64,000 nucleotides of DNA from Escherichia coli (GTDB taxonomy: Bacteria; Pseudomonadota; Gammaproteobacteria; Enterobacterales; Enterobacteriaceae), in the NCBI RefSeq assembly GCF_044324875.1, contig NZ_CP172185.1. One strand, given 5' to 3'. Positions 24,159 through 24,503 of this stretch are shown here, one piece after another (the stretch's first letter is position 1; every line of letters begins with the position of its first letter). Made by a program: the position numbers and the translations under genes. Under the pieces are notes generated by a model. That model worked only from the letters and a program-made list of their open reading frames with translations, was not told the DNA's origin and did not search any database.

Positions 24159-24503
24159 TGTGTGAGTCAGTGCAGAATCGGATTAGCCCGTTTTTAGCCA
24201 TCGGTAGGGTAAAGTTTGATGGAAAATATGGGTTATGTGCCGATGTATCCCACAATGAAATAACCCTCGAGGGAAAGGAATCAGCGCGATGAACAAATTC
24301 ACGGTGTTTTGCTGCTAGGTGTGGTATTTCTCGGCTTTATTATTGTACCGTTCTTGATATGGCCGACGGTGGTTGCGCTGGCTGCTTGTATTATTACGCT
24401 GAGTTTTCTGGGGAGATACTGTTCTCTATCCCGCTCATGATCAGGCGTATTTCACTTCTGGAATTACAACTTTGGTTATCGGTTGTATATGCGCTTTGTC
24501 CAT

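What the first reader, a model, noticed from the sequence alone, without database searches (positions are those of the whole stretch)
24290..24440. Frameshifted small hydrophobic ORF between the adhesin gene and the REP/IS region
atgaacaaattcacggtgttttgctgctag gives MNKFTVFCC then a stop. The +1 frame continues VVFLGFIIVPFLIWPTVVALAACIITLSFLGRYCSLSRS, a single transmembrane-like segment. Together these look like a small membrane protein broken by a 1-nt indel. It might correspond to the K-12 yzgL pseudogene region or be a remnant carried with the island.
Basis: inference. Interest (0 to 1): 0.3.

Follow-up and report, generated by a model that had tools for sequence, protein, structure and literature searches.

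The report
Mosaic pseudogene remnant upstream of glpD
The "broken small membrane protein" is ordinary gene debris: the first 31 bases of a phosphate-binding-type lipoprotein gene fused by a roughly 1-kb deletion to a frameshifted, truncated third of a 200-residue membrane-protein gene that is intact in many other E. coli.

Summary
ATG 24289 gives MNKFTVFCC, then TAG at 24316-18. The next frame (ORF 24309-24440) reads the hydrophobic VVFLGF...SRS.

It is not one small gene with one indel. The window is E. coli: glgP, a 7-gene auf-type fimbrial operon, this remnant, REP with IS621, then glpD. Many other E. coli carry two PstS-family genes plus a 200-aa hypothetical membrane protein (WP_000981057.1) at this site.

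The remnant has these parts:
- 24207-24263: the 3' tail of PstS gene 1.
- 24289-24319: the first 31 nt of PstS lipoprotein gene 2, with a 1-nt deletion that creates the TAG.
- 24320-24324: a junction where about 994 nt are missing.
- 24325-24497: codons 12-69 of the 200-aa gene (92% identity), with a second 1-nt deletion in a G-run.
- 24491-24497: a 7-nt microhomology (GCGCTTT) where a 435-nt deletion removed the gene's last two thirds and joined it to a REP element.

The locus type occurs in 227 of 5426 complete E. coli genomes. Both 1-nt deletions are present in all 60 I could inspect, and no genome scored better. RefSeq already annotates the remnant as a frameshifted, incomplete pseudogene. 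K-12 yzgL is debris of the same ancestral cluster but keeps different, non-overlapping pieces.

Verdict: real, ordinary, already annotated, low interest.

The parts
24207..24263 (+). 3' remnant of PstS-family substrate-binding protein gene #1. It reads ...SLMENMGYVPMYPTMK* against the intact ...SLVEDVGYVPLYPTME*, with stop TAA at 24261-24263.
   Evidence: blastn of window 24207-24319 against L002 1393-1506 (83%) and L006 7925-8039 (85%). Alignment A2. Translation of the intact gene's end.
24264..24288 (+). Retained PstS#1-PstS#2 intergenic spacer with the Shine-Dalgarno-like GGAAAGGAA upstream of ATG 24289.
   Evidence: Alignment A2: CCCTCGAGGGAAAGGAATCAGCGCG against CGCTCGAGAGAAAGGAATCAGCGAG in XYEH3934.
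24289..24319 (+). First 31 nt of PstS-family lipoprotein gene #2 (intact start: MNKFTGVLLLGTALLAGC). A 1-nt deletion (CACCGG to CACGG) between 24302 and 24303 produces MNKFTVFCC and TAG at 24316-24318.
   Evidence: The intact starts in L002, L003 and L006 are ATGAATAAATTCACC(G/T)GTGTTTTACTATTAGG.
24320..24324 (.). Deletion junction (TGTGG). About 994 nt are missing (L002 1507-2500): nearly all of PstS#2 and the first ~34 nt of the 200-aa gene. The exact breakpoint cannot be resolved within about 5 nt.
   Evidence: blastn coordinates; sequence comparison.
24325..24497 (+). Codons 12-69 of the 200-aa Escherichia-restricted hypothetical membrane protein gene (WP_000981057.1 type), the only part that survives.
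   Evidence: 92% identity to L002 2501-2674 and 95% to metagenome contig L008. The PGAP pseudogene in the identical genome TUM1886 maps to window 24297-24511.
24410..24413 (+). G-run with 4 G where intact alleles have 5. This second frameshift gives the out-of-frame tail RYCSLSRS* (stop 24438-24440). The homologous reading continues in the third frame (EILFSIPLMIRRISLLELQLWLSVVYAL).
   Evidence: Alignments A1 and A3; repair and translation.
24491..24497 (.). 7-nt microhomology GCGCTTT at the junction of the 435-nt deletion that removed codons ~70-200 and joined the gene to the downstream REP region.
   Evidence: The gene reads ATATGCGCTTT|TCTTCTG, the downstream region reads GTGGCGCTTTG|TTCATGCC, and the window reads ATATGCGCTTTGTCCATGCC. 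Overlapping blastn segments.
24498..24576 (.). REP/BIME-type repeat region normally found between the 200-aa gene and glpD. It is present in K-12 and repeated genome-wide, and it is the target of the IS621 insertion.
   Evidence: Window 24490-24575 matches L004 (K-12 derivative) 1599-1685 at 94%. Many places per genome match query positions 341-411.
24309..24440 (+). It is a by-product of the lesions above, not a gene.
   Evidence: The exact sequence is absent from the 15-billion-protein collection. No SD-like motif lies upstream of it (sequence).

Best explanation
Window 24207-24497 is a non-functional mosaic pseudogene, the decayed residue of a three-gene cluster. That cluster is PstS-family gene 1, PstS-family lipoprotein gene 2 and a 200-aa orphan membrane protein. 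It lies between glgP and glpD and is intact in about 38% of complete E. coli genomes.

In this lineage an auf-type chaperone-usher fimbrial operon occupies the place of almost all of PstS#1. Downstream of it, four lesions left only fragments:
- A ~994-nt deletion fused nt 31 of PstS#2 to codon 12 of the 200-aa gene.
- A 1-nt deletion in the PstS#2 start creates the TAG at 24316.
- A 1-nt contraction of a G5 run at 24410-13 shifts the frame again.
- A 435-nt deletion between two GCGCTTT repeats removed the last two thirds of the 200-aa gene and abutted it to a REP element.

The homology, the lesions, their presence in every inspected genome of this locus type and the RefSeq pseudogene call are shown. 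It is inferred that the stretch encodes nothing useful and at most travels as untranslated 3' sequence of auf transcripts up to the REP. It is also inferred that the deletions arose by replication slippage or microhomology-mediated illegitimate recombination. The order of events is inferred too: the 3' truncation probably came first, on the evidence of metagenome contigs only.
For: - Synteny: glgP, the auf-type operon, the remnant and glpD in the window and in the identical genome TUM1886. PGAP there annotates 'hypothetical protein; frameshifted; incomplete; missing C-terminus' at the equivalent of 24297-24511.
- Intact cluster at the same site in XYEH3934, 14EC033 and strain B1.
- Segment-by-segment homology with E-values from 1e-27 to 1e-68.
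- The PstS#2 start MNKFTGVLLLGTALLAGC.
- G-run and C deletions seen in alignments.
- 7-nt microhomology at the 3' deletion.
- A query with both 1-nt deletions repaired scores at best 99.4%. All 60 listed records span 354 nt against the 356-nt repaired query, so each carries both deletions.
- The intact gene covers at least 80% of the query in 2052 of 5426 genomes.
- The remnant carries substitutions at positions that are invariant or nearly invariant in the family: V17I, L21F, V23I.
- No chimeric or 43-aa product is recorded among 5.8 billion clustered proteins.
- No promoter-like site lies upstream of or within the ORFs (the one site found, 24532-24560, is downstream in the REP region). No terminator-like site falls within the remnant, and there is no above-threshold Rfam match.
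Against: - The PstS#2-start::200-aa fusion would be in frame if the single C were restored. That could hint at a period as a chimeric ORF, but an in-frame result has a 1-in-3 chance expectation.
- The PstS#2 ribosome-binding site and ATG are retained, so a 9-residue peptide could be made if the region is transcribed.
- There are no expression data.
- The exact upstream breakpoint is unresolved within 5 nt.
- The order of events rests on short metagenome contigs (L008, L009). These may be chimeric, and they have no counterpart among complete genomes.
Confidence: 0.93

Rival explanations
1. A single small membrane-protein gene of about 50 aa, inactivated by one 1-nt indel.
For: A real 1-nt deletion lies between the two frames. 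Restoring it gives one continuous hydrophobic reading, MNKFTGVLLLGVVFLGF....
Against: - The two parts are homologous to two different genes that lie about 1 kb apart in intact loci.
- The hydrophobic part belongs to a 196-201-aa protein.
- The C-terminal RYCSLSRS is produced by a second frameshift.
- No intact small ORF of this kind exists in 5426 genomes or in 5.8 billion clustered proteins.
Confidence: 0.02
2. The 43-codon ORF (24309-24440), or the 9-codon ORF at 24289, is expressed as a new functional micro-protein or leader peptide, exapted from gene debris and possibly read from auf operon transcripts.
For: - The ORFs sit in a stretch that is at least 99% identical to the window in 225 of the 227 genomes of this locus type. 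Both frameshifts were seen in all 60 genomes inspected.
- The ATG at 24289 keeps an SD-like GGAAAGGAA.
- No terminator-like site is predicted between the adhesin stop at 24158 and the REP.
Against: - At least 99% identity reflects recent common ancestry, not selection.
- The 43-aa ORF has a TTG start without an SD.
- The sequence is absent from the protein collection.
- Its tail is frameshift nonsense.
- It carries substitutions at family-invariant positions.
- PGAP calls it a pseudogene.
Confidence: 0.03
3. A programmed +1 ribosomal frameshift at the TAG (prfB-like) yields a functional product.
For: A stop codon sits at the frame junction, and the +1 frame is open downstream.
Against: - The site ...TGC TGC TAG G has no prfB-type CUU-U slippery context and no SD-like stimulator just upstream of the stop (my own reading of the sequence, compared with what I know of the prfB site).
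- The frames derive from different genes.
- A second frameshift and a 3' truncation follow.
- Intact relatives need no frameshift.
Confidence: 0.005
4. A sequencing or assembly artefact: a homopolymer error creates an apparent frameshift.
For: One lesion is in a G homopolymer (24410-24413).
Against: The same two 1-nt deletions and both large deletions are found in independent complete assemblies from many laboratories and platforms.
Confidence: 0.005

Closest known systems
RefSeq/PGAP pseudogene QVM91_RS01965 in E. coli TUM1886 (NZ_CP128970.1 425330-425544): 'hypothetical protein; frameshifted; incomplete; missing C-terminus'
   Same: It is the same sequence (100% identity over window 24150-24560) at the same position between the fimbrial adhesin gene and glpD. 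It is already flagged as frameshifted and truncated.
   Different: PGAP models only the 200-aa-gene part (window 24297-24511). It does not record that the upstream ATG and 31 nt come from PstS gene 2, or that a PstS#1 tail precedes them.
WP_000981057.1 family: 196-201-aa hypothetical membrane protein encoded immediately upstream of glpD in E. coli (BL21, O157:H7 and others), E. albertii and E. marmotae
   Same: The remnant's core (24325-24497) is 92% identical in DNA to codons 12-69. Synteny and orientation are the same.
   Different: The window copy lacks codons 1-11 and ~70-200 and is frameshifted. The family has no Pfam, NCBIfam or PADLOC assignment, only 38 hits in 1.84 billion representatives, and an unusable AF2 model with pLDDT 43.7. 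Its function is unknown.
K-12 yzgL pseudogene (glgP-glpD spacer)
   Same: It is debris of the same ancestral PstS-PstS-200-aa cluster in the same intergenic position.
   Different: yzgL is the 5' part of PstS gene 1. K-12 also keeps the last 60 nt of the 200-aa gene. The window keeps the PstS#1 tail, the PstS#2 start and codons 12-69. There is no sequence overlap except the REP.
PstS-family (PF12849 PBP_like_2) lipoprotein gene 2 of the cluster (WP_001032214.1 type)
   Same: The ATG, the upstream spacer and the first 31 nt are homologous.
   Different: The lipobox and the whole binding domain are deleted. The window retains about 3% of the gene.
GenBank AAV31774.1 / UniRef Q5UDR9, 92-aa 'hypothetical protein' of E. 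coli
   Same: It is derived from the same remnant. It is the third-frame reading MADGGCAGCLYYYAEFSGEILFSIPLMIRRISLLELQLWLS..., which corresponds to the window ORF starting at 24359.
   Different: It is a gene-caller or depositor ORF that starts out of frame and becomes homologous only after the G-run frameshift. It is not evidence of a protein.

Membership tests
200-aa Escherichia hypothetical membrane protein (WP_000981057.1 type) | Sequence homology to the conserved N-terminal region (G15 F16 I18 V19 L21 L22 V23 W24 ... T36 L37 F39 E42 F45 S46) | tested here: met
   92-95% DNA identity over 173 nt. The repaired translation aligns to codons 12-69, but with V17I, L21F and V23I at invariant or near-invariant columns.
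200-aa Escherichia hypothetical membrane protein (WP_000981057.1 type) | Full-length uninterrupted ORF of about 196-201 codons | tested here: not met
   Codons 1-11 and ~70-200 are absent, and there is a frameshift in the G-run at 24410-24413. It is a pseudogene of the family, not a member encoding a protein.
200-aa Escherichia hypothetical membrane protein (WP_000981057.1 type) | Position immediately upstream of glpD (convergent) and downstream of PstS-family genes | tested here: met
   In the window an IS621/IS21 insertion now separates it from glpD.
PstS-family lipoprotein gene 2 (PF12849) | Homologous start codon, spacer and signal-peptide N-region | tested here: met
   83-85% identity over 114-115 nt that include the upstream gene's tail and the spacer.
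PstS-family lipoprotein gene 2 (PF12849) | Lipobox (LAGC) and PBP_like_2 binding domain | tested here: not met
   The sequence after nt 31 is replaced by the 200-aa gene fragment. The repaired chimeric peptide has no Pfam hit. The intact copy hits PF12849 at 7e-30.
K-12 yzgL pseudogene | Sequence correspondence with yzgL (5' part of PstS gene 1) | tested here: not met
   Window 24160-24489 has no blastn match in the BW25113 glgP-glpD spacer. Only the REP at 24490-24575 aligns.
K-12 yzgL pseudogene | Same chromosomal spacer (glgP-glpD) and same ancestral cluster | tested here: met
   The last 60 nt of the 200-aa gene lie at the edge of the K-12 yzgL annotation.
Functional small membrane protein (sORF) | Credible start with a ribosome-binding site, and recognition as a gene in other genomes | tested here: not met
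   TTG start with no SD-like motif upstream. The exact 43-aa product is absent from the 15-billion-sequence collection. PGAP annotates a pseudogene.
Functional small membrane protein (sORF) | Evidence of translation or transcription | not testable with these tools
   No expression data are available here. No promoter-like site lies upstream of or within the ORFs (the only one found, 24532-24560, is downstream), and the terminator scan gave background-level counts.
Programmed +1 frameshift gene (prfB-like) | Slippery P-site codon before an in-frame stop, an upstream SD-like stimulator, and conservation of the arrangement in orthologues | tested here: not met
   The site is TGC TGC TAG G. Orthologous intact genes have no frameshift and are two separate genes.

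The most novel reading that the evidence does not exclude
The debris is not inert. When the auf-type operon is transcribed, read-through into 24207-24497 could allow translation of the retained PstS#2 start (a 9-residue peptide) or of the 43-codon hydrophobic ORF. That would give a lineage-specific small membrane peptide exapted from a dead gene. A broader version is that the orphan 200-aa protein and its PstS-like partners form an uncharacterised, hypervariable, repeatedly lost Escherichia envelope module, and this remnant is one decay product of it.
Probability: 0.04. Interest if true: 0.35.

Novelty: already known. Interest (0 to 1): 0.07.

Why it matters
It matters little in itself. It corrects an annotation-level reading: there is no new small protein here, only a pseudogene that RefSeq already flags.

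The modest value lies in the reconstruction. The glgP-glpD spacer is a hotspot where one ancestral three-gene cluster has decayed in different ways:
- The K-12 yzgL deletion.
- An internal stop in a strain (MS 57-2) whose related fimbrial operon I take to be the B2-type auf.
- The triple-lesion remnant beside the auf-type fimbrial operon in the window.

The reconstruction also explains spurious 'hypothetical proteins' in databases, such as AAV31774.1, as wrong-frame reads of the same debris.

Tried and rejected
- **Family searches.** Pfam, NCBIfam and PADLOC scans of the intact 200-aa protein and of the repaired peptide found no family. The only hit was a sub-threshold 19-bit match to a septation-inhibitor model, which I ignored.
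- **Representative-protein search.** The exhaustive HMMER search of 1.84 billion representatives gave only 38 hits, mostly fragments of the same Escherichia family. One was a 38%-identical 184-aa metagenome protein with uninformative neighbours.
- **Structure.** The AlphaFold2 model built from a 17-sequence alignment had pLDDT 43.7 and pTM 0.32. That is too poor for a fold search, so I ran none.
- **Rfam.** The E-value-mode scan of 24000-28700 gave only a sub-threshold ES036 match in the REP region.
- **Promoters and terminators.** The scan gave background-level counts. The one promoter-like site (24532-24560) lies downstream of the remnant, and neither terminator-like site falls inside it.
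- **Intermediate form.** I looked among complete genomes for a copy with an intact 5' end and the same 3' truncation. Only two metagenome contigs show it (L008, L009), and no complete genome does. The inferred order of events is therefore weak.
- **Literature.** The search for 'yzgL' returned nothing relevant. One search was wasted on German word-starts.
- **First alignment.** MAFFT paired window 24207-24288 with the tail of PstS#2. I rejected this in favour of the PstS#1-tail/spacer/PstS#2-start junction, which BLAST and a focused alignment support much better.
- **Origin of 'MNKF'.** I considered that it derives from a divergent allele of the 200-aa gene itself, since some alleles start MNKI.../MIKF... 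I rejected this because nt 14-31 and the 80 nt upstream match the PstS#2 context and not the context of the 200-aa gene.

Full report
**Observation**

ATG at 24289 is followed by eight codons and TAG at 24316-24318, giving MNKFTVFCC*. The next frame is open from TTG 24309 to 24440 and reads MLLGVVFLGFIIVPFLIWPTVVALAACIITLSFLGRYCSLSRS. The first ~35 residues are strongly hydrophobic. A third frame, the ORF starting at 24359, reads ...EILFSIPLMIRRISLLELQLWLSVVYAL.... That frame turned out to matter.

**Context**

The window is E. coli chromosome. glgP lies at 14037-16484. A seven-gene chaperone-usher operon follows at 16967-24158: major subunit, chaperone, usher, two minor subunits, a second chaperone, and a 383-aa adhesin with a C-terminal Pfam Fimbrial domain. 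Then come the finding, a REP region, an insertion, and glpD at 28591-30111 on the minus strand.

Window 24150-24560 is 100% identical to five complete genomes. Some 227 of 5426 complete E. coli genomes match at least 80% of that stretch, and 225 of them are at least 99% identical to the window.

In one of the identical genomes (TUM1886), RefSeq/PGAP annotates a pseudogene, 'hypothetical protein; frameshifted; incomplete; partial in the middle of a contig; missing C-terminus'. Its coordinates map to window 24297-24511. A published comparison places the auf fimbrial operon in the glpD..glgP region of ExPEC strains (PMC12928451). The window operon has the same gene order. The 3' part of its adhesin gene is about 78% identical to that of a related fimbrial operon at this site in strain MS 57-2, which I take to be the B2-type auf.

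**What the hydrophobic part is**

In many other E. coli the same site upstream of glpD carries three genes: two PstS-family substrate-binding protein genes and a 603-bp gene for a 200-aa hypothetical protein, WP_000981057.1. Its translation begins MMNIIRLYIYPLFLGFVIVPLLVWPMVVALAACIITLSFLGEMLFSIPLMIRRISLLQLQLWLSAEYAL....

Window 24325-24497 aligns to nt 35-208 of that gene at 92% identity (E about 1e-66).

Where intact alleles have GGGGG, the window has GGGG (24410-24413). This throws the reading into RYCSLSRS*, and the homologous continuation (EILFSIPLMIRRISLLELQLWLSVVYAL) appears in the third frame.

After codon ~69 the gene is gone. The window passes straight into the REP region that normally lies downstream of the gene's stop. 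The breakpoints share the 7-nt repeat GCGCTTT:
- gene: ATATGCGCTTT|TCTTCTG
- downstream: GTGGCGCTTTG|TTCATGCC
- window: ATATGCGCTTTGTCCATGCC

This indicates a 435-nt microhomology-mediated deletion.

**What the 'MNKFTVFCC' part is**

It is not the start of the same gene. Window 24207-24319 matches, at 83-85% identity over 114-115 nt, the junction between the two PstS-family genes. The match covers three elements:
- The last 17 codons of gene 1. The window reads SLMENMGYVPMYPTMK*; the intact gene reads SLVEDVGYVPLYPTME*.
- The 25-nt spacer with its GGAAAGGAA ribosome-binding site.
- The first 31 nt of gene 2.

Intact gene 2 begins ATGAATAAATTCACCGGTGTTTTACTATTAGGC..., which is MNKFTGVLLLGTALLAGC, a lipoprotein-type signal peptide. 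The window has CACGG where intact copies have CACCGG or CACCTG. This 1-nt deletion between 24302 and 24303 converts ...T G V L L L G into ...T V F C C *.

Between 24319 and 24325 about 994 nt of the intact arrangement are missing. That is almost all of PstS#2 and the first 34 nt of the 200-aa gene.

If the missing C is restored, the PstS#2 frame runs in frame into the 200-aa gene's frame (MNKFTGVLLLGVVFLGFIIVPF...).

I considered that MNKF might come from a divergent allele of the 200-aa gene, because some alleles start MNKI... or MIKF.... However, nt 14-31 and the 80 nt upstream fit only the PstS#2 context.

**Fixation and distribution**

A query in which both 1-nt deletions were repaired scores at best 99.4%, which equals two gaps. 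Each of the 60 listed records spans 354 nt against the 356-nt repaired query. So no complete genome scores better than the window's own doubly deleted type, and every inspected one carries both deletions.

No protein with the chimeric N-terminus, and no copy of the 43-aa ORF product, exists in the 5.8-billion-cluster collection. What databases do contain are wrong-frame ORF calls over the same DNA. An example is the 92-aa AAV31774.1/Q5UDR9, MADGGCAGCLYYYAEFSGEILFSIPLMIRR....

The intact 200-aa gene covers at least 80% of the query in 2052 of 5426 genomes. K-12-type genomes retain only its last 60 nt, next to yzgL. yzgL is the 5' part of PstS gene 1. In a K-12 derivative nothing from window 24160-24489 aligns. 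yzgL and the window remnant are therefore independent, non-overlapping leftovers of one ancestral cluster. Strain MS 57-2, with the related fimbrial operon, keeps the downstream genes, but its copy of the 200-aa gene has an internal stop. That is a third independent decay.

**Order of events**

Two metagenome contigs (L008, L009) carry an intact 5' end, no G-run frameshift and the same GCGCTTT truncation. This suggests the 3' deletion came first. No complete genome shows this state, so I treat the order as tentative.

**Function of the ancestral gene**

It is unknown:
- There is no Pfam, NCBIfam or PADLOC family.
- Named homologues are all from Escherichia (E. coli, E. albertii, E. marmotae).
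- Only 38 hits appear among 1.84 billion representatives.
- The AF2 model is all-helical but has pLDDT 43.7, so I attempted no fold search.

The remnant carries V17I, L21F and V23I at columns that are invariant or nearly invariant in the family. This is consistent with relaxed constraint.

**Mechanism and verdict**

The best explanation, at about 0.93 confidence, is an inert mosaic pseudogene produced by two deletions and two single-base frameshifts beside the auf-type island. At most it is co-transcribed as 3' untranslated sequence of auf mRNA up to the REP. That last point is inference: no terminator-like site is predicted between 24158 and the REP.

The rivals are each unlikely, for the reasons listed under rival explanations:
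- a single small gene with one indel
- an exapted micro-protein
- programmed +1 frameshifting
- an assembly artefact

The feature is real, ordinary and already annotated as a pseudogene. Interest is low.

Noticed in passing
window 24577-28500: An IS621 element (IS110 family; transposase ORF fragment 24684-25532, minus strand) is inserted in the REP downstream of the remnant. From my own recollection of the published IS621 work, its natural target is ATCAGGCCTAC; that sequence is present here on the minus strand. The plus-strand junctions are CACGTAG|ATACTG... and ...ATACAAG|GCCTGATAAG, with AG at both junctions.
   Followed up: partly
window ~25538-28192: An IS21-family ISSso4-like element is nested inside the IS621 and splits its transposase gene (istA 26419-28062, istB 25647-26642, both minus strand). 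No other complete E. coli genome shows the nested pair at this locus. Two genomes have a similar pair elsewhere.
   Followed up: partly
window 16489-24206: The seven-gene auf-type chaperone-usher operon occupies the place of PstS gene 1, from just after the glgP stop to about 24189-24206. It leaves only the last ~57 nt of PstS#1. Strain MS 57-2, with the related fimbrial operon (L007), has the same PstS#1-tail fragment (window 24217-24248, L007 3670-3701) downstream of its adhesin gene. That suggests one ancient insertion. The two operon types are only ~78% identical in the adhesin 3' part.
   Followed up: partly
L002 2467-3069, L005 4002-4607, L006 9002-9601, L007 5214-5819 (orthologues of window 24325-24497): The orphan 200-aa gene is unusually divergent among E. 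coli: 79-100% nt identity over the gene and 74-76% over codons 12-69 for the L005/L007 alleles. The flanking glgP and glpD are 95-98% identical. The middle gene of the cluster differs between the loci examined: PstS#2 in L002/L003/L006, and an unrelated 255-aa hypothetical in the O25:H4 locus L005 and in MS 57-2 (L007). The locus looks like a hypervariable, repeatedly decaying module of unknown function.
   Followed up: partly
window 24359-24805: This 148-codon ORF begins out of frame, becomes homologous to the 200-aa protein after the G-run frameshift, and then runs through the REP into IS621. Versions of it are deposited as 'hypothetical protein' (AAV31774.1/Q5UDR9, 92 aa; P0143, 148 aa). 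These are annotation artefacts of the pseudogene.
   Followed up: yes
window 24537-24580: There is a sub-threshold Rfam match to ES036 (CssrF) sRNA, at 29 bits against a gathering score of 37.6 (E 0.009). It lies inside the REP/BIME-type region and is probably repeat-derived.
   Followed up: no
L010 945-1499 (metagenome scaffold): This is the only distant full-length relative of the 200-aa protein (P0117, 184 aa, 38% identity). Its start overlaps the end of an upstream 278-aa protein with no Pfam family. It is not next to PstS-like genes in the 2.5 kb available.
   Followed up: partly
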